Shown here: piece by piece, positions 1,468 through 7,306 of the stretch
How positions within the stretch are numbered: the first letter of the stretch is position 1
Layout: every line of letters starts with the position of its first letter
UHGV virus genome: UHGV-0159119
From: a virus
Length of the DNA: 18,360 nucleotides
Strand: one strand, 5' to 3'
Notes under the pieces: model-generated
Database searches by the model: none
Seen by the model: the letters and a program-made list of their open reading frames with translations, nothing else
Told to the model about the DNA's origin: nothing
Program-made: the position numbers and the translations under genes

Positions 1468-1649
1468 TGGTTGCCTCCTTTGCGCCACGTCGCATTCAGA
1501 TATCTGTTGTCGTTAACAGAACCGAAACTCTTTCTCTTAAGCAATTCCTCTCTCGATGGCATTGGCTTTACGCGTTGGCGAATAATCATTTCTGCCGGAA
1601 GAATGCCGGGATTGTATGCAAGTCCTCTCATGGTAAATTCCTCAGTCAT
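1464..1649 (-). CDS. Hypothetical small early protein (start uncertain: ATG 1649 or ATG 1631)
   Basis: In-frame part of track ORF 1464..1784. ATG 1649 sits next to the upstream stop; ATG 1631 has a GAGGAA RBS. Confidence 0.4.
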
Positions 1650-1938
1650 TACTGATAGCGCCATAGCGTGAGCGGTAATTACGCAGGCGCGGGTCGATAT
1701 ATTCAGGGAAGTTGGTATATGTGGCTTTGCGGAATGGTCGGATTGATGTCTGGTAAATTCGCTCGCGTTCTTCTTTCTCTGCAAGCCATATACAATGGCG
1801 AAATTCCTTTTCCTCTTTCGTTTCCTGCGGTAGCGACATTATCCGGTCGTAGTTTTTCCTGAATTTATCCAGCACCTCCGATACGGAATTACCGGAACAG
1901 CGGCGCGGGTCATCCGCACCATACTGAGGCGCTGGCAT
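1642..1938 (-). CDS. Hypothetical early protein
   Basis: 98 aa ORF with AGGAG 7 nt upstream of the ATG; tightly packed between neighbouring genes. Confidence 0.5.
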
Positions 1939-1951
1939 GATTTTCTCCTGA

Positions 1952-2458
1952 TTAAATTGCGTGAATAGCGTGACGAGGGAAGGGGAGAGTTACTGGTGCA
2001 AAGGGTATATCGTCGTCAAAATCCATCGGAGGTTCGTTGTGTTGTGCTGGTGATGATTGCTGCTGTGGCTTCTGTGATTGCCTGCTGGCTGCTTGTTGTT
2101 TGCTGTCGCCAATGCTGCCAAGCATTTGCATCACGCCATTAATTCCGACATGAACCTCGGTTGTGTAACGGTCTTGCCCTGACTGGTCTTTCCACTTTCT
2201 GGTTCTCAGCATTCCCTCGAAATAAATCTGATCACCTTTTTTCACATACTGCCCCACGACCTCAGCCAGTTTCCCGGATACAGCAACACGATGCCATTCA
2301 GTCAATTCCTTTTGCTCGCCAGTATTTTTATCTCGCCATTGTTCTGACGTGGCTATTGTCAGGTTAGCGAACGCTGTTCCTGATGGTGAGTATCGAACTT
2401 CCGGGTCTTGTCCTACCCGACCAAGGATAATCACCTTATTTACGCCTCTGCTTGCCAT
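1952..2458 (-). CDS. ssb: Single-stranded DNA-binding protein with a 15-aa extension after the DFDDDIPF tip
   Basis: N-terminal OB-fold region is close to E. coli SSB ([38 protein letters not shown]). The acidic tail [11 protein letters not shown] is present but followed by [15 protein letters not shown] before the TAA. Confidence 0.9.
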
Positions 2459-3166
2459 CTATGCCGCCTGTTTTAGTTCGTTAACTCTGATGTTCATTAC
2501 CTGAACGCATTTAGCCTGCGCCTCCTCGTTGCCAGCCATTAATTGCCAGTCACGCTGATAACGCTCGATGAGTTTTTTCTTGTCAGTTTCTGTTGACGCA
2601 TAATCGCTGAAGTCTTTCAGGATTTGTTCGCAGTCAACCGATGGAGATTTCTGGTTGGTATTTTCTGGTGATGGTTTGTTATCTGATGCTGGGATTGCCC
2701 ATCCCGGCAGCGATGGAGGGGACCAGTAAAATCCTGTTCCATCCTTCAGTTTTGCCCTGTGCCACCCCTGCTTTTTATCGAGAGATGTTTGTGCGAAACC
2801 TTCCTCAAGGTTATACAGATACCGACCGATTCCCCACTGAACGGCAGCACGCTTCATTGCACCGGAACGACCACCTTTGACGGCTTCTACCTGCGTGTTT
2901 TCAGCAGCATCCCATTTGGTTACCCATTCGGAATCAATCTTGATTGATATGCCGCATTCAACTCCGCCGTTGTTGGGAATATCGCGGTATTCATTGCGCC
3001 ATCCTGCTTTGCCGCAAACATCGTCCAGGCGTTTCATGATTGCCCGGTTCGTGACATAAGCCAGCACCATAGCCCACACCTTGCCATCGCGTGTTTTACC
3101 GCTTTGCTGTATTCGCCATTCGATATCTTCAGGGCTGAATGGCTCATCGAATTTGTTCAAATCCAT
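2459..3166 (-). CDS. Phage single-strand annealing recombinase (Rad52/Sak-type core; C-terminal tail resembles P22 Erf)
   Basis: 235 aa with GISIKIDSEW..KGGRSGAMKRAAVQWGIGRYLYN core. C-terminal TETDKKKLIERYQRDWQ..KCVQVMNIRVNELKQ matches my recollection of the Erf tail. GAGGTG RBS. Confidence 0.8.
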   Translation of the reverse strand: MDLNKFDEPFSPEDIEWRIQQSGKTRDGKVWAMVLAYVTNRAIMKRLDDVCGKAGWRNEYRDIPNNGGVECGISIKIDSEWVTKWDAAENTQVEAVKGGRSGAMKRAAVQWGIGRYLYNLEEGFAQTSLDKKQGWHRAKLKDGTGFYWSPPSLPGWAIPASDNKPSPENTNQKSPSVDCEQILKDFSDYASTETDKKKLIERYQRDWQLMAGNEEAQAKCVQVMNIRVNELKQAA

Positions 3167-3174
3167 AATTCACC

Positions 3175-3345
3175 TCAGAATGGACACGGCCCAAGGAAAT
3201 AACGCTGATTTAATACTTCGACTCGGGACAAATTAAGGCATACCCGCATTCCTTCGCGGTCACCATTATGGCGATACCAGAGAGCTTTCTGCGTGTACAT
3301 GCGTCTCTGTAACTTGCTCTCCTTCACTGTGGTTGCAAGTGACAT
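3175..3345 (-). CDS. Small hypothetical protein (56 aa) in the gam/abc slot
   Basis: Below the track threshold. ATG at 3345 with AAGGAG 7 nt upstream. Overlaps the next ORF by 80 nt in another frame. Confidence 0.3.
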   Translation of the reverse strand: MSLATTVKESKLQRRMYTQKALWYRHNGDREGMRVCLNLSRVEVLNQRYFLGPCPF

Positions 3346-3713: not shown

Positions 3714-4682
3714 TTAGTAGGTTATTTTTGTTGCGAATACTTCGCCTTTTACGATGGCTGTTATGATATTTTTAGCAACATCTTCTGATGCGCCAACCTT
3801 GATAAGGTCAGCAAGTATTTTGTTATTTACTTCTTTCCGGTGATCTTTATCCTTTGCTCTACGCTCTTCTTCGTCCTTGATTCTTTTTTCTTCTGCTATT
3901 CTGGCTTGCTCTTTTGCTTCAGCATCGCGACGGATTTGTTCAGCCTCCTCCTGTGCTTTTCTGCGTTCTGCTTCAATTGCTGCCTGCTTTTCTCTTTCAG
4001 CTCGTTCTGCTGCCTCTTTTGCTTCGCGCTGTGCTCGTTGCTCGGCTTCAATGCGTTCACGCTCTGCACGTTCTGCTGCGGCCTTAGCTTCTGCTTCTCG
4101 CCTTGCTGCTGCTTCAATTTCGGCTTTTGCCTTTGCTTCGGCTTCTGCTCTGGCTTTCTCTTCAGCTTCTCTTTTTAATCGTTCTTCATGCTCTCGCTTT
4201 TCCTGCTCCGCTTTGAGTCTTGCCTCTTCTCTTTGGCGGTCAAATTCGCGATCCATCAAAATCGCTATTTCATGGTCAGACTCAATTTGCTTTGCGAGAG
4301 CTTCAGCTGCTGCCTTAGCTTCTTCTTCGGCTTTAATCCGCGCCTGTTCTTCCTCATAATCAGTAAGAGGCTGGCGTGCCTTGGCTTTCAGCTCATCAAG
4401 GCGATCACGCACTGTCTTGCGGTTGGCATCAATTAGCTTTGGAATTTCCTTCAGTTCAGCAACAAGGTCTTTGCCAAGACCATCGAGATATGTTTTCGTC
4501 TGCGCAACTTTATACGCCAGAGAAGCGATCTCCTTTCTGCCCTTTGCCGTTGTGATATCAGGCACAAAGGACATAACTTCACGTTCAACCTTTTGAAGGA
4601 TTTCTTCAATCTGGTCGGAAGACTGAAATACAGTCATTGCATTTGCTTTTTCAATAACAACTAAATCTGTTACTTCACTCAT
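3714..4682 (-). CDS. Highly charged coiled-coil protein, function unknown
   Basis: 322 aa. The central ~200 residues are E/A/K/R repeats (EAKAKAEIEAAARREAEAKAAAERAERER...). AGGAGG RBS. Confidence 0.7.
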   Translation of the reverse strand: MSEVTDLVVIEKANAMTVFQSSDQIEEILQKVEREVMSFVPDITTAKGRKEIASLAYKVAQTKTYLDGLGKDLVAELKEIPKLIDANRKTVRDRLDELKAKARQPLTDYEEEQARIKAEEEAKAAAEALAKQIESDHEIAILMDREFDRQREEARLKAEQEKREHEERLKREAEEKARAEAEAKAKAEIEAAARREAEAKAAAERAERERIEAEQRAQREAKEAAERAEREKQAAIEAERRKAQEEAEQIRRDAEAKEQARIAEEKRIKDEEERRAKDKDHRKEVNNKILADLIKVGASEDVAKNIITAIVKGEVFATKITY

Positions 4683-5131: not shown

Positions 5132-5224
5132 AAAGAAGATTTCCAATAATCAGAACAAGTCGGCTCCTGTTTAGTTACGAGCGACATTGCTCACATAGCA
5201 GACTCGTAAATCTGCTATAGGCGC

Positions 5225-5386
5225 TTATTCGCATCGCATGACAACATCAAATTTTTCGAGATTACTTTGTCGCAACAATCCTTCTTCTACGCGGTCAGCT
5301 TTTCTATAATTATCAAATTCGAAATGTTTGATTACTTCTTTCGTTTCTCGCTCTATAACTTCAACAATGTATTTCTTATTCATCAT
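5225..5386 (-). CDS. Small hypothetical protein (53 aa)
   Basis: ATG overlaps the stop of the upstream gene (ATGA). Translation MMNKKYIVEVIERETKEVIKHFEF... Below the track threshold. Confidence 0.35.
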   Translation of the reverse strand: MMNKKYIVEVIERETKEVIKHFEFDNYRKADRVEEGLLRQSNLEKFDVVMRCE

Positions 5387-5679
5387 TCTTCCCCAAGAGC
5401 TTTTCTGATTGCTGCAAGACCTTTATTAACAGCTCCATACCATTCTGGATATGTTGTCGTTGTTCTATTTTTGGTTTGCTTAAGTAATAACTGAAGTGCT
5501 TCGAGAAGGTCAGGTGCTGCCGCTATTAGATTGGCATCTTCAATGCATTGAACTTCCTCACAGATTGCAATATACGAACGCCAGCCTGCGCCATTTTCAA
5601 GTGAGTCTGCCTGGATGATTTTAATCTCATCGCCATCCATCATTATTTCCCACTTACCTTCAGTACCTTTAAATTCCAT
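5383..5679 (-). CDS. Hypothetical early protein
   Basis: 98 aa ORF with a GAGG RBS. Confidence 0.6.
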   Translation of the reverse strand: MEFKGTEGKWEIMMDGDEIKIIQADSLENGAGWRSYIAICEEVQCIEDANLIAAAPDLLEALQLLLKQTKNRTTTTYPEWYGAVNKGLAAIRKALGEE

Positions 5680-5718
5680 GTTAGCCTCTGTTGTTTATGC
5701 CAAAAATAAAGGCCACCA

Positions 5719-5970
5719 TCAGGCAGCCTTGTTGTAAATGTTGCAGGTATCAAGTAAGTAATTAGATGGAGCGCCATAAATTATGAATTCATCGTTTGTC
5801 GGGTCCATCTCCATCTCTTGGCCTATTGCCATTCTTGCATCAGTGTCATCAGCGGCGAAGCATAAAACAGCCCACGCACCCATTGTTTTAAAAAGAACTG
5901 CAATTGGCTGTGGTTTTACTGAATTTGCGTTAGCGCGAAAATCATAAATCGCACTTTCATGAAATTCCAT
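5719..5970 (-). CDS. Hypothetical early protein
   Basis: 83 aa ORF with a GAGGTG RBS; first gene downstream of N. Confidence 0.6.
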   Translation of the reverse strand: MEFHESAIYDFRANANSVKPQPIAVLFKTMGAWAVLCFAADDTDARMAIGQEMEMDPTNDEFIIYGAPSNYLLDTCNIYNKAA

Positions 5971-6028
5971 ATATCACCTCAAATAAGTGGTTTGCTGCCT
6001 AATTTCATTTTCTGGCGACCAACACAAG

Positions 6029-6301
6029 TCATCTTGCTGTCAGTTGTTTGGATTTCCGGTAGCCTGCCGCGTAAAGAGCTACGTTTGGAAGACAAGTTGA
6101 ACCTTCATATTTTCTGGTCAACGTTGTCAGAGTTATCACTTCTGCTCTCATTGCTGGTTTGCGCTTGCATTGCAAGACCACTCGTGAAGGGGTTGGCCTG
6201 TGTAGCTTGTCGGAGCTGATCGCCTCCTGACTTTGCAGATTTGCACGACGAGCTCTACGGCGAGAAGCTGCGGTTCCTTTAAATTCTGTTTTTCTGGACA
6301 T
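6029..6301 (-). CDS. N: N-type transcription antiterminator (P22 gene 24-like)
   Basis: Start at ATG 6301 with GGAGG RBS. Arginine-rich motif GTAASRRRARRA near the N-terminus. C-terminus LPNVALYAAGYRKSKQLTAR matches my recollection of P22 N. The longer track ORF 6029..6373 is an upstream in-frame extension. Confidence 0.8.
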   Translation of the reverse strand: MSRKTEFKGTAASRRRARRANLQSQEAISSDKLHRPTPSRVVLQCKRKPAMRAEVITLTTLTRKYEGSTCLPNVALYAAGYRKSKQLTAR

Positions 6302-6399
6302 AGATTCCTCCCGAATAAACTTTGGCGATGCAATCTCGAAGCCCCTCCTGAGACGGTTGCTTCGGCATTGCATCCCACAGCTTATGTGGTTGGGTGATC

Positions 6400-6445
6400 T
6401 GGCTTTTCAGCCACGTAGTCGAGTGTTCGACGTTGTTTAAAGAGC
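6400..6445 (-). promoter_or_regulatory. nutL (boxA plus boxB)
   Basis: Minus-strand boxA GCTCTTTAAACAA, then a boxB hairpin UGGCU-GAAA-AGCCA (5-bp stem, GAAA loop), located between pL and N. Confidence 0.55.
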
Positions 6446-6491
6446 CTGCCAGTCTGTTCCGTTTGGCTTCCAGCTTCCTGCTGATGGCTAA

Positions 6492-6520
6492 ATAGTACGA
6501 TGTGTACTTTACTGAGTCAA
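6492..6520 (-). promoter_or_regulatory. pL promoter with operator OL1 in the spacer
   Basis: Minus strand TTGACT, 17 nt spacer, TACTAT. The 15-bp operator AGTACACATCGTACT (an AGTAC/GTACT dyad) covers the spacer and the start of the -10, in the same register as at pR. Confidence 0.6.
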
Positions 6521-6582
6521 TACAAAATGTTCTAAATATGGTTTAGTTTTTTATAACGCTTTGTATTTAATGGGTTTATATT

Positions 6583-6616
6583 TTGGAAAAAGAAAACCCG
6601 ACGCTAAGGTCGGGTT
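6583..6616 (-). terminator. Intrinsic terminator downstream of cI
   Basis: Minus-strand hairpin AACCCGAC-CUUAGC-GUCGGGUU followed by UUCUUUUUCC. Confidence 0.55.
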
Positions 6617-6646
6617 ATTGTTGTGTGTTTTAGAGTGGTGAGGCTG

Positions 6647-7306
6647 TTAACTAAATGTCTCTTCAGGCCACTGGCTAGCGATAACTTTCCCTACTACGGA
6701 ACAGCTATCATTGCATGGAATCATTGGATATTGCGGGTTTAGTGGTTGTAGGAACACCTGACCGCTATCCCTGATCAGTTTCTTGAAGGTAAACTCGTCA
6801 CCACCAAGTCTGGCTATGCAGAAATCACCTGGCTCAACAGCCTGCTCAGGGTCAACGAGAATTAACATCCCGTCAGGAAAGCTTGGCTTGGATCCTGTTG
6901 GCGCGGTCATGGAATTACCTTCAACTTCAAGCCAAAACGCACAATCACTGGCTTTTTTGGTTGTGCTGACCCATCTCTCCGCATCACCTTTGGTAAAGGT
7001 TCTAAGCTCAGGCGAGAACATCCCGGCCTGAACATGAGAAAAAACAGGGTACTCATATTGTTTTTTAACGGGGGCAGATGAGTATTCGCCAACAGGTGAA
7101 AATGTACCGTCGTGGTTGAATGAGACGTTATCAATACCAAGGTATTTAAACACCACACCAATCTCGTCAAGAGATGGATGACGAGATCCGCGCAACCAGT
7201 GACCAATTCCACCCTGCGTCATACCAAGCTCTTCGGCTAACTTCTCTTGAGTTATGCCGAGCTCTTTCATTCTGGATCTAGCCAGTTCATACCATTTCAT
7301 TTTCAT
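6647..7306 (-). CDS. cI: CI prophage repressor (HTH N-domain, LexA-like autocleaving C-domain)
   Basis: C-terminal domain is almost identical to lambda CI, including the AG cleavage site in HVQAGMF. The N-terminal HTH domain is not lambda's. Alternative starts at ATG 7300, 7342 and 7348. Confidence 0.9.

What the first reader, a model, noticed from the sequence alone, without database searches (positions are those of the whole stretch)
1952..2458. SSB whose conserved C-terminal tip is followed by a 15-residue extension
In bacterial and phage SSBs the C-terminus is the acidic tip ...DFDDDIPF, and the free terminal Phe is what partner proteins bind. Here the tip is intact but the frame continues through [15 protein letters not shown] before the stop. 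That would mask the partner-binding tip while keeping ssDNA binding, so the protein could be an altered or even dominant-interfering SSB.
Basis: partly seen in the sequence, partly recalled or inferred. Interest (0 to 1): 0.5.

Follow-up and report, generated by a model that had tools for sequence, protein, structure and literature searches.

The report
Conserved cap on phage SSB tip
The 15 extra residues after this prophage SSB's partner-binding tip are not a lost stop codon but a conserved, selected cap found on many unrelated phage ssDNA-binding proteins, which is unexpected because partners are thought to need that tip's free end.

Summary
ORF 1952..2458(-) encodes a 168-aa OB-fold SSB ending ...[26 protein letters not shown]. 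It lies in the early-left operon of a lambdoid prophage, between a Rad52-like annealase and abc2.

It is not a recent stop-codon loss. The identical tail occurs in the plaque-forming phages HK75, mEp235, epsilon34 and ECP1, and 297 of 5426 complete E. coli genomes carry the junction. Of the 120 closest homologues, 111 have a 15-residue tail.

The tail is nearly as conserved as the OB fold. It is under purifying selection (dN/dS about 0.25; one haplotype has 7 synonymous and 0 nonsynonymous changes).

It is a variant of a broader module, [10 protein letters not shown]-phi-G-L-Q-Y-x4-phi-H-x-phi. That module caps the tip on at least five unrelated phage protein families, in temperate and virulent phages.

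It is gained or lost as a discrete unit, for example a clean 48-nt indel between PVP-SE1 and SPLA5a. In lambdoid phages, HNH endonuclease genes insert exactly at the tip/tail joint. The SSB then ends canonically and the HNH ORF reads into the tail.

Function is untested. Most likely the cap alters or redirects tip-mediated partner docking. No paper in the library searched contains these sequences.

The parts
1952..2458 (-). ssb CDS: 168-aa prophage single-stranded DNA-binding protein, including stop TAA at 1952..1954
   Evidence: ORF list; Pfam SSB 1.5e-36; phrog_44 6.3e-67; PGAP annotation of the same CDS
2147..2443 (-). OB-fold ssDNA-binding/tetramerisation domain (residues 6-104)
   Evidence: Pfam match. 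About 70% identity to solved enterobacterial SSBs, with the Trp41, Trp55, His56 and Trp89 equivalents kept and E. coli Phe60 replaced by Ser (alignment). AF2 pLDDT is 82-89 over most of the domain.
2033..2119 (-). Gln/Pro-rich disordered linker (residues 114-142)
   Evidence: AF2 pLDDT <50; highest column entropy of the protein, 1.78 bits
2000..2032 (-). SSB-Ct tip [11 protein letters not shown] (residues 143-153), identical to the last 11 residues of E. coli SSB but internal here
   Evidence: Sequence; alignment to solved SSB; entropy 0.22 bits; dN/dS 0.02
1955..1999 (-). 15-residue cap [15 protein letters not shown] (residues 154-168): a discrete 45-nt mosaic unit, the enterobacterial variant of the AP-phi-[GT]-L-x-[YF]...phi-[HY]-x-phi module
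   Evidence: Identical in HK75, mEp235, epsilon34 and ECP1. The same DNA closes HNH ORFs in Sf6 and Huey. 111 of 120 homologues are tailed. Entropy 0.57 bits; dN/dS 0.25. Related caps occur on other protein bodies.
1955..1972 (-). Imperfect 9-nt tandem repeat CACGCTATT/CACGCAATT encoding HAI-HAI at the end of the cap
   Evidence: Read. A Salmonella cluster of 588 members (P0001) ends ...PRHAI, one repeat shorter.
1642..1938 (-). abc2 (anti-RecBCD protein 2), the next gene downstream; its RBS AGGAG lies just after the ssb stop
   Evidence: Pfam Anti-RecBCD_p2 3.8e-61; phrog_656
2459..3166 (-). Rad52/Rad22-family single-strand annealing protein; its stop abuts the ssb start
   Evidence: Pfam Rad52_Rad22 5e-26; phrog_1097 6.3e-130

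Best explanation
The extension is a functional, phage-specific C-terminal cap on the SSB partner-binding tip. It is not a lost stop codon. The protein is an otherwise ordinary OB-fold SSB expressed from the prophage early-left operon together with a Rad52-like annealase and the anti-RecBCD protein Abc2.

Its last 26 residues form a composite linear motif. A tip identical to the host SSB tip ([11 protein letters not shown]) is followed without any spacer by [AS]-P-phi-[GT]-L-x-[YF]-x-[RK]-H-x-phi-[HY]-x-phi.

Shown here: the cap is translated in frame. Its length and sequence are conserved, and it is under purifying selection. It occurs on at least five unrelated families of phage proteins that carry an SSB-type tip, in temperate and virulent phages. 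It is gained and lost as a discrete unit placed exactly after the Phe codon.

Inferred: the Phe is no longer C-terminal, so the alpha-carboxylate that host SSB-interacting proteins anchor on their basic lip is absent. The canonical docking mode should therefore be weakened or changed. The tip stays as strongly constrained as in ordinary SSBs, and the best-conserved cap residues are the ones next to it (F-A-P-x-[GT]-L-x-[YF]). For that reason I think tip and cap act together as one extended docking or regulatory element that changes which partner the phage SSB engages, or when. The partner is probably a host protein conserved across Proteobacteria, because the neighbouring phage recombinases differ between tailed loci.

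Separately, in lambdoid phages the tip/cap joint is an insertion site for HNH endonuclease genes. The window carries the endonuclease-free allele.
For: - **Viable phages carry it.** The identical cap is in HK75, mEp235, epsilon34 and ECP1 on SSB bodies of differing sequence.
- **It is the majority form among close relatives.** 111 of 120 closest homologues have a 15-residue cap, with 28 conservative variants across 8 or more enterobacterial genera. In a viral sample chosen through the OB fold, not the tail, 61 of 80 SSBs are capped.
- **It is conserved at the protein level.** Column entropy: cap 0.57 bits, OB fold 0.42, tip 0.22, linker 1.78.
- **It is under purifying selection.** dN/dS: cap 0.25, OB 0.09, tip 0.02. 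One haplotype has 7 synonymous and 0 nonsynonymous changes.
- **Related caps occur far outside Enterobacteriaceae.** A tip-anchored scan of one genome per species found them in Proteus, Sodalis, Tatumella, Trabulsiella, Rheinheimera, Chromobacterium and beta- and alphaproteobacterial MAGs, next to different recombinases.
- **The composite sits on unrelated bodies.** A tip+cap profile against 1.84 billion representatives found it on phrog_44, 3284, 4477, 2544 and 9002/DUF669. The 4477 and 2544 profiles end at IPF.
- **Virulent phages have it too.** 90 phage genome records carry it, including PVP-SE1, KB57, Mydo, a phapecoctavirus, ABPH49 and about 40 Vibrio phages.
- **It behaves as a discrete unit.** There is a clean 48-nt indel (cap plus its own TAA) between PVP-SE1 and SPLA5a.
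- **The premise is supported in the literature.** Alpha-carboxylate anchoring and loss of binding on removing the last Phe (PMC10164576). An appended C-terminal GFP abolishes ExoI binding and is dominant negative (PMC7293020).
Against: - There are no functional data on any capped protein.
- The cap is dispensable in nature. Sf6, Huey and other phages with an HNH insertion have a free tip, and close tail-less relatives exist in the Vequintavirinae family (SPLA5a, Av-05, Bas52_0087).
- Synonymous divergence in the cap (pS 0.39) is about half that of the rest of ssb (0.69-0.75). Part of its uniformity among enterobacterial phages therefore reflects recent recombinational spread.
- AF2 gives no confident structure or docking for the cap (residues 114-163 have pLDDT <50).
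- No partner was identified.
- The dN/dS values are pooled pairwise counts from related sequences, not an independent-events test.
Confidence: 0.5

Rival explanations
1. Passenger sequence at a mosaic joint. The 45 nt is a boundary or linker segment shared by recombining lambdoid phages and by HNH endonuclease cassettes. It is translated onto SSB only because the stop lies at its far end, and it does nothing for SSB.
For: The same DNA closes either ssb or an HNH ORF and is followed by either abc2 or an exonuclease gene. Synonymous divergence is half that of the rest of the gene. Phages whose SSB ends at IPF are viable. A second, unrelated HNH_3 endonuclease occupies the same slot.
Against: dN/dS is 0.25, with a 7-synonymous/0-nonsynonymous haplotype. 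Length is fixed at 15 in 111 of 120 homologues. Most HNH relatives lack the tail, so it is not an HNH feature. Related caps with very different DNA occur on unrelated proteins in virulent phages that have no HNH gene nearby.
Confidence: 0.15
2. Portable C-terminal degradation or instability tag. The non-polar end with upstream basic or His residues (…RHAIHAI, …IYAL, …LYALA) targets whatever protein carries it (SSB or HNH nuclease) to a host AAA+ protease, limiting its lifetime.
For: It works at an extreme C-terminus on different protein bodies, including a potentially toxic nuclease. The last residues are always small-then-hydrophobic. The Salmonella variant that lost one HAI repeat still ends in HAI. 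From memory only, it resembles the ssrA tag (…YALAA), the MuA ClpX signal (…RRKKAI) and the SulA Lon degron.
Against: The most conserved cap positions are the N-terminal ones next to the tip (P2, L5, aromatic 7), not the terminal ones. Apart from the HNH case, the cap was found only directly after an SSB tip with invariant spacing. It does not end in LAA or AA. No stability data exist.
Confidence: 0.15
3. Removable pro-peptide. The cap keeps the tip inactive until cleavage at Phe153|Ala154 releases a C-terminus identical to host SSB.
For: The tip is identical to the host tip right up to the Phe, and it is always followed by [AS]-P. The tip remains under very strong selection in capped proteins. 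Nature makes the same cut genetically: indels and HNH insertions fall exactly after the Phe codon.
Against: No protease is known or predicted for this site. Fifteen well-conserved residues are more than a cleavage signal needs. Nothing in the data shows processing.
Confidence: 0.1
4. Recent stop-codon loss or sequencing error producing an aberrant, possibly defective SSB.
For: None beyond the fact that canonical relatives ending IPF* exist.
Against: The same sequence is in 297 complete E. coli genomes, in several independently sequenced phages, and in hundreds of homologues from other genera that carry conservative substitutions.
Confidence: 0.01

Closest known systems
E. coli SSB and its C-terminal tip (SSB-Ct, ...[15 protein letters not shown])
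   Same: OB-fold domain about 70% identical, Gln/Pro-rich disordered linker, and an identical 11-residue tip.
   Different: In E. coli SSB the Phe is the last residue, and its alpha-carboxyl is a key contact for partners (PMC10164576). Here 15 conserved residues follow it. E. coli Phe60 is Ser here.
Engineered SSB with a C-terminal GFP fusion (Dubiel et al. 2020, PMC7293020)
   Same: Residues are appended after the terminal Phe. That construct lost ExoI binding and was dominant negative from a plasmid.
   Different: It is artificial and carries a bulky folded domain. The natural cap is a short, conserved linear peptide under selection in phages.
Phage HK620 SSB with Sak4 (Hutinet et al. 2018, PMC5928155)
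   Same: A lambdoid-phage SSB encoded beside its annealase and abc2. Its C-terminal six residues recruit and stimulate the cognate annealase.
   Different: HK620 SSB is a distant SSB ending in a free NDYPPF, with no cap. However, the HK620-type long SSBs next to Sak4-like ATPases in Trabulsiella and a Dongiaceae MAG do carry DDDIPF plus a cap.
Bas52_0087 (phage RudolfGeigy), a two-OB-fold SSB-like trigger of DRT10 (bioRxiv 10.64898/2026.04.29.721553)
   Same: Its length, N-terminus and gene position match those of PVP-SE1 gp038, which is capped; the capped relative P0193 matches phrog_4477. Family membership of Bas52_0087 and gp038 themselves is inferred, not scanned. The tip motif is linked experimentally to ExoI dosage.
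   Different: Bas52_0087 ends ...FDDDIPF* with a free tip. The passages I read from the preprint do not mention capped relatives.
Sf6 gp26 / Huey endonuclease (RefSeq label 'HNH endonuclease', phrog_2340)
   Same: Ends in the same 14 residues, [14 protein letters not shown], encoded by the same DNA. The Sf6 GenBank note already records '14 contiguous amino acids identical to ... E. coli SSB'.
   Different: It is a different protein with no SSB tip. Most of its homologues lack the tail, so it acquired the tail by inserting between the SSB tip and the cap.
Naturally tip-less SSB paralogues (for example SsbB of competent Gram-positive bacteria; from my own knowledge, not checked here)
   Same: SSB variants whose partner interface differs from that of the housekeeping SSB.
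   Different: Those lack the tip altogether. Here the tip is retained, strongly conserved and extended.

Membership tests
OB-fold homotetrameric SSB (Pfam PF00436) | OB-fold ssDNA-binding domain | tested here: met
   PF00436 at 1.5e-36. Solved enterobacterial SSBs match at E 1e-57 to 1e-59. AF2 gives a confident beta-barrel plus helix 63-71.
OB-fold homotetrameric SSB (Pfam PF00436) | Conserved ssDNA-contact aromatics and the tetramer-interface His (E. coli W40, W54, F60, W88, H55) | tested here: inconclusive
   By the alignment, the W41, W55, H56 and W89 equivalents are present, and the F60 equivalent is Ser. Residue roles are from my own knowledge.
OB-fold homotetrameric SSB (Pfam PF00436) | Disordered linker followed by the acidic tip D-F-D-D-D-I-P-F | tested here: met
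   Sequence; pLDDT <50 for residues 114-163.
OB-fold homotetrameric SSB (Pfam PF00436) | The tip Phe is the C-terminal residue, with a free alpha-carboxyl used by partners | tested here: not met
   Fifteen residues follow Phe153. The requirement is described in PMC10164576.
OB-fold homotetrameric SSB (Pfam PF00436) | ssDNA binding, tetramer formation, partner recruitment | not testable with these tools
   Needs biochemistry.
Capped SSB tip (tip + AP-phi-[GT]-L-x-[YF]... module, defined here) | I-P-F followed immediately by [AS]-P, Leu at cap position 5 and an aromatic at position 7 | tested here: met
   The window has F-A-P-V-T-L-P-F. Position statistics are, and distant members.
Capped SSB tip (tip + AP-phi-[GT]-L-x-[YF]... 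module, defined here) | Cap of about 12-17 residues ending small-then-hydrophobic, with the stop directly after | tested here: met
   15 residues ending H-A-I.
Target site of a free-standing HNH homing endonuclease | Presence/absence of the endonuclease gene at one nucleotide position between otherwise near-identical flanks | tested here: met
   Window and HK75 versus Huey: identity up to ...GAACCTCC and again from CCAGTAACT.... In the viral sample, 10 or more canonical-SSB plus HNH loci stand against 61 capped loci.
Target site of a free-standing HNH homing endonuclease | The inserted ORF is an HNH-type nuclease | tested here: inconclusive
   The Sf6/Huey type has no Pfam hit, matches phrog_2340 'endonuclease' and is labelled 'HNH endonuclease' by PGAP. 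The L276 type matches HNH_3 PF13392 at 1.6e-13.
Target site of a free-standing HNH homing endonuclease | The endonuclease cleaves the empty allele and is copied into it | not testable with these tools
   Needs cleavage and co-infection assays.
Beta-clamp-binding motif (QL[SD]LF / QLxLxL; recalled from memory) | Gln at position 1 | tested here: not met
   The cap has Pro (PVTLPF, PIGLQY).
Beta-clamp-binding motif (QL[SD]LF / QLxLxL; recalled from memory) | Hydrophobic residues at positions 2, 4 and 6 | tested here: met
   V-x-L-x-F and I-x-L-x-Y by inspection. This is a resemblance only.
Beta-clamp-binding motif (QL[SD]LF / QLxLxL; recalled from memory) | Binding to the clamp | not testable with these tools
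   No multimer prediction or assay was available.
C-terminal degron (ssrA-like LAA, MuA-like RRKKAI; recalled from memory) | Terminal L-A-A or A-A | tested here: not met
   Ends H-A-I. Variants end YAL, HVI, HCI or YALA.
C-terminal degron (ssrA-like LAA, MuA-like RRKKAI; recalled from memory) | Protease-dependent instability | not testable with these tools
   Needs half-life measurements.

The most novel reading that the evidence does not exclude
The tip-plus-cap is a previously unrecognised bipartite short linear motif used by many phages of Proteobacteria. The host-identical SSB tip brings the phage protein to SSB-interacting proteins. The cap then converts that contact into something host SSB cannot do. 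Possibilities are tight, selective capture or inhibition of one host factor (for example an ssDNA exonuclease, a helicase, the sliding clamp or a protease), or hiding the tip from host proteins and from defence systems that respond to phage SSB-like proteins. This would be a natural counter-example to the rule that the SSB tip must be C-terminal.
Probability: 0.25. Interest if true: 0.8.

Novelty: new variant of a known kind. Interest (0 to 1): 0.6.

Why it matters
The free C-terminal Phe of bacterial SSB is treated as indispensable for recruiting the roughly 17 or more genome-maintenance partners, and it is being pursued as an antibacterial target. Here a cap hides that terminus. The cap is conserved and selected, and it sits on classical SSBs, two-OB-fold SSB-like proteins and other phage ssDNA-binding families in both temperate and virulent phages.

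If confirmed, this would mean one of two things. Either some partner reads the tip as an internal motif, or phages deliberately gate or redirect tip interactions.

Either outcome would add a new layer to how phages take over host DNA metabolism. It could also matter for recombineering systems that depend on SSB-annealase compatibility, and for defence systems triggered by phage SSB-like proteins.

It is cheaply testable with peptides. The HNH result also gives a natural pair of capped and uncapped alleles in otherwise near-identical phages (HK75 versus Huey).

Tried and rejected
- **Recent stop-codon loss or assembly error:** rejected.
- **Tail as an intrinsic part of the HNH endonuclease:** rejected, because most HNH homologues end differently.
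- **Tail always linked to HNH traffic:** rejected, because PVP-SE1 and SPLA5a differ by a clean indel with no endonuclease nearby.
- **HK620 SSB paper as prior description:** it concerns a different SSB ending NDYPPF.
- **ETfinder paper:** its 'C-terminal extension' refers to RecT, not SSB.
- **DRT10 preprint protein Bas52_0087:** I expected it to be capped, but it ends at IPF.
- **Full-text searches for the peptide strings:** 0 papers.
- **AF2 of the SSB with a 39-sequence alignment:** no confident cap structure or docking, so no fold search was run.
- **First viral-contig pattern scan:** it allowed only synonymous variants, so it was unusable for selection tests. I replaced it with an OB-fold-anchored sample.
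- **Genome contigs pattern:** it let a stop codon match the NNN position, so 63 of 121 hits were ordinary SSBs.
- **Third protein-database search (tip+cap profile):** returned mostly gene fragments and gives no usable count.
- **Promoter/terminator scan of 1500..3300:** nothing at the ssb 3' end.
- **Clamp-binding and degron resemblances:** these are from memory and were not testable.

Full report
**1. Observation**

On the minus strand, ORF 1952..2458 encodes a 168-aa protein. Residues 6-104 match the Pfam SSB family at E=1.5e-36, and the whole protein matches phrog_44. After a Gln/Pro-rich linker come [11 protein letters not shown] (residues 143-153, nt 2000..2032), then [15 protein letters not shown] (residues 154-168, nt 1955..1999), then TAA (1952..1954).

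The OB domain is about 70% identical to solved enterobacterial SSBs. The equivalents of E. coli Trp40, Trp54, His55 and Trp88 are kept, and Phe60 is Ser. AlphaFold2 with a 39-sequence alignment models the OB fold well (pLDDT 82-89). Residues 114-163 stay below 50, with only a weak hairpin inside the tail.

**2. Context**

The window is 99.9% identical to a lambdoid (P22-like) prophage in the E. coli STEFF_1 chromosome. ssb lies in the early-left operon in the order cIII, kil, Rad52/Rad22-family annealase (2459..3166), ssb, abc2 anti-RecBCD (1642..1938), then ea genes. No promoter-like or terminator-like site lies at the ssb 3' end. The RBS of abc2 follows the ssb stop directly.

**3. Not a local accident**

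The same 168-aa SSB with the identical tail is annotated in the plaque-forming phages HK75, mEp235, mEpX2, epsilon34 and g341c. In ECP1 the SSB body is clearly diverged, yet the tail differs only by two synonymous changes.

The 75-nt tip-tail-stop sequence is present at >=80% coverage in 297 of 5426 complete E. coli genomes, inside annotated ssb genes.

Among the 120 closest proteins in a 5.8-billion-protein collection, the C-termini are as follows:

| C-terminus | Count |
|---|---|
| 15-residue tail | 111 |
| 12-residue tail | 1 |
| Ends at IPF | 7 |
| Frameshifted | 1 |

There are 28 distinct tails, from Escherichia, Salmonella, Klebsiella, Citrobacter, Enterobacter, Kluyvera, Pluralibacter and Phytobacter. 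They differ by conservative changes, for example RHAIYAI, RHTIHVI, APITLPF and APATLPFPSHAVYAI.

**4. Constraint**

| Region | Column entropy, bits | dN/dS |
|---|---|---|
| OB fold | 0.42 | 0.09 |
| Linker | 1.78 | 0.17 |
| Tip | 0.22 | 0.02 |
| Tail | 0.57 | 0.25 |

The dN/dS values are pooled Nei-Gojobori counts on 47 unique ssb genes. Those genes were sampled through OB-fold peptide patterns, not through the tail. One tail haplotype carries seven synonymous and no nonsynonymous differences from the window's tail. The tail is therefore translated and selected as a peptide.

Its synonymous divergence (pS 0.39) is about half that of the rest of the gene (0.69-0.75). So among enterobacterial phages the segment has also been spread recently by recombination. 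These are pooled pairwise counts on related sequences, not an independent-events test.

**5. A mosaic joint and an endonuclease insertion site**

Phages Sf6 and Huey have an SSB that stops right after a recoded tip (MNFDDSDIPF*, MNFDDEIPF*). An endonuclease gene follows, and its own C-terminus is ...[19 protein letters not shown]. That C-terminus is encoded by DNA identical to the window's tail, and abc2 follows as in the window. The Sf6 GenBank record already notes the 14 residues shared with 'E. coli SSB'.

In 120 viral contigs found with a tail-only pattern, the tail closes an SSB 94 times, an HNH ORF 24 times and a degenerate ORF twice. It is followed by either abc2 or a 3'-5' exonuclease gene, in all four combinations.

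Most homologues of this endonuclease end differently (YPEDLKAA, YPENTNA, GEGKNAK), so the tail is not an endonuclease feature. A second, unrelated HNH_3 endonuclease (PF13392, 1.6e-13) occupies the same slot in L276 and L296.

The simplest reading is that the capped ssb is the empty allele and that endonuclease cassettes insert at the tip/tail joint. Insertion supplies a recoded tip and a stop for ssb, and the cassette borrows the tail to finish its own ORF. That these nucleases home is inferred, not shown.

**6. The tail belongs to a much wider module**

A scan of one genome per species anchored on DDDIPF, not on the tail, found related continuations:

| Source | Continuation after DDDIPF |
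|---|---|
| Proteus | APIGLPYPHIAIHII |
| Sodalis | APLGLQYGRNFIYAIS |
| Tatumella | APIGLQHPAHFIYSI |
| Trabulsiella | APIGLPFPSHSIYAL |
| Rheinheimera | APIGLQCKRILHCM; APMGLECRRMLHCI |
| Chromobacterium | APLGLQRRFSTYSM |

Betaproteobacterial and alphaproteobacterial MAGs also gave related continuations. These loci sit in prophage-like neighbourhoods next to different recombinases (Sak4-like ATPases and others) and on different SSB bodies.

A tip+tail profile searched against 1.84 billion representative proteins found the composite on proteins of 128-406 aa. These belong to phrog_44, phrog_3284, phrog_4477, phrog_2544 and phrog_9002/DUF669. The 4477 and 2544 family profiles end exactly at IPF, so the tail is an add-on in a subset of members.

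By tblastn, 90 phage genome records carry tip+tail. They include virulent phages:

| Phage protein | Length | C-terminus |
|---|---|---|
| PVP-SE1 gp038 | 409 aa | ...[27 protein letters not shown] |
| Acinetobacter phage ABPH49 | 413 aa | ...APIGLQYARHAIHAI (same last seven residues as the window) |
| Phapecoctavirus SSB | 310 aa | ...APIGLQYGRNFLHCF |
| Vibrio phage K433 SSB | 178 aa | ...APVGLQFGKKFMHVI |
| Cronobacter phage JK004 | 179 aa | ...[15 protein letters not shown] |

The general consensus is D-F-D-D-D-I-P-F-[AS]-P-phi-[GT]-L-x-[YF]-x-[RK]-x-x-phi-[HY]-x-phi. The window's [15 protein letters not shown] is the enterobacterial lambdoid variant.

**7. Gain and loss as a unit**

Within the PVP-SE1 family, relatives match either residues 1-409 or exactly 1-394, and residue 394 is the Phe of IPF. 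SPLA5a (84% identical) and Av-05 stop at IPF, directly before the terminator, with no endonuclease nearby.

The PVP-SE1/SPLA5a alignment shows a clean 48-nt difference. It consists of the 45-nt tail plus its own TAA, placed between the Phe codon and the original TAA.

Bas52_0087 is a phage SSB-like protein with two predicted OB folds. A 2026 preprint identifies it as the trigger of the DRT10 defence system and links it to ExoI dosage. Its length, N-terminus and gene position match those of PVP-SE1 gp038, and it ends ...FDDDIPF* without a cap.

**8. What it most likely does**

Established knowledge:
- SSB partners bury the terminal Phe and anchor its alpha-carboxyl, and removing the Phe abolishes binding (PMC10164576).
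- Appending GFP to the C-terminus abolishes ExoI binding and is dominant negative from a plasmid (PMC7293020).

With 15 residues after the Phe, the canonical docking mode cannot be the same.

Three observations argue that the tip is not simply switched off:
- It remains the most constrained part of capped proteins.
- It remains identical to the host tip on unrelated bodies.
- The best-conserved cap positions are those adjacent to it, with invariant spacing.

I therefore favour a composite docking or regulatory element that changes which partner is engaged, or when. The partner is probably a conserved host protein, because the flanking phage genes vary. Confidence is about 0.5 for this class of mechanism.

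The rivals are a passenger sequence at a recombination joint (0.15), a portable degradation tag (0.15) and a cleavable pro-peptide (0.1). None could be excluded computationally.

The cap is dispensable in nature, because both forms occur in viable phages. It is therefore a modulator, not a requirement.

**9. Comparison and novelty**

The protein is a member of the OB-fold SSB family on every sequence criterion except one that was tested and not met: the tip is not C-terminal.

Databases annotate it simply as SSB. The only trace of the tail that I found is the Sf6 GenBank note about 14 shared residues. Two full-text searches for the peptide strings returned no papers. The library lacks most subscription-journal papers, so absence there is not proof of absence.

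I rate it a new variant of a known kind: a naturally capped SSB tip that forms a conserved, mobile module across phage ssDNA-binding proteins.

Noticed in passing
L129, L130, L133, L140, L146, L152, L155, L161 and about 20 more genome-contig loci: Bacteroidota genomes encode proteins of about 150-190 aa ending ...DRWGLFNPPGV..D(K/H)DP-DDDIPF-NPDDFFE. They carry an internal DDDIPF in what does not look like an SSB by eye; no domain scan was run. This could be an SSB-tip mimic or a different partner-binding motif.
   Followed up: no
P0136 (178 aa) and P0137 (139 aa), E. coli: In-frame chimeras in which the SSB OB domain is joined to the C-terminal half of the Sf6-type HNH endonuclease, still ending in [14 protein letters not shown]. 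They are probably deletion products within the ssb-HNH cassette.
   Followed up: no
P0001; window 1955..1972: A Salmonella SSB cluster with 588 member sequences ends ...PRHAI. It lacks one copy of the 9-nt tandem repeat CACGCTATT/CACGCAATT that encodes HAI-HAI, and its C-terminus is still HAI.
   Followed up: partly
L227 (Rheinheimera MAG), reverse-complement coordinates 5191..6726: A tandem duplication: the ssb 3' end (tip plus cap) and the following 129-aa ORF occur twice in a row, with slightly diverged caps (APMGLECRRMLHCI and APMGLECWRMLHCV).
   Followed up: no
L167 (Sodalis sp.), L167:6829-7392 minus strand: A 188-aa ORF with a Cys-rich N-terminus like the Sf6/Huey endonucleases starts inside the end of a capped ssb (overlapping the cap codons), so here the SSB keeps its cap. 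It has no Pfam hit.
   Followed up: partly
L333 (Klebsiella phage K23PH08C2), locus about 2370..2540: The two-OB SSB-like gene ends ...DFDDQIPF, followed by three consecutive stop codons and then an annotated HNH endonuclease. This is another endonuclease lying directly after an SSB-type tip, in a virulent phage.
   Followed up: no
window 3714..4682 (-): A 322-aa ORF that is extremely rich in E/A/K/R (long REAE/KAEA repeats) has no Pfam match. PGAP labels it 'cell envelope biogenesis protein TolA'. Sf6 and Huey also have a 969-nt CDS at the corresponding position; sequence similarity was not checked.
   Followed up: no
window 1955..1999 compared with the rest of ssb: Synonymous divergence in the cap codons (pS 0.39) is about half that of the OB, linker and tip codons (0.69-0.75). 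This may reflect recombinational homogenisation or an extra DNA/RNA-level constraint at the ssb/abc2 joint.
   Followed up: partly
P0160 (120 aa): A protein whose N-terminal part looks, by eye, like an Ead/Ea22-type protein is fused to the last 38 residues or so of this SSB (linker end, tip and cap). This suggests the C-terminal module can be moved by recombination onto other ORFs.
   Followed up: no
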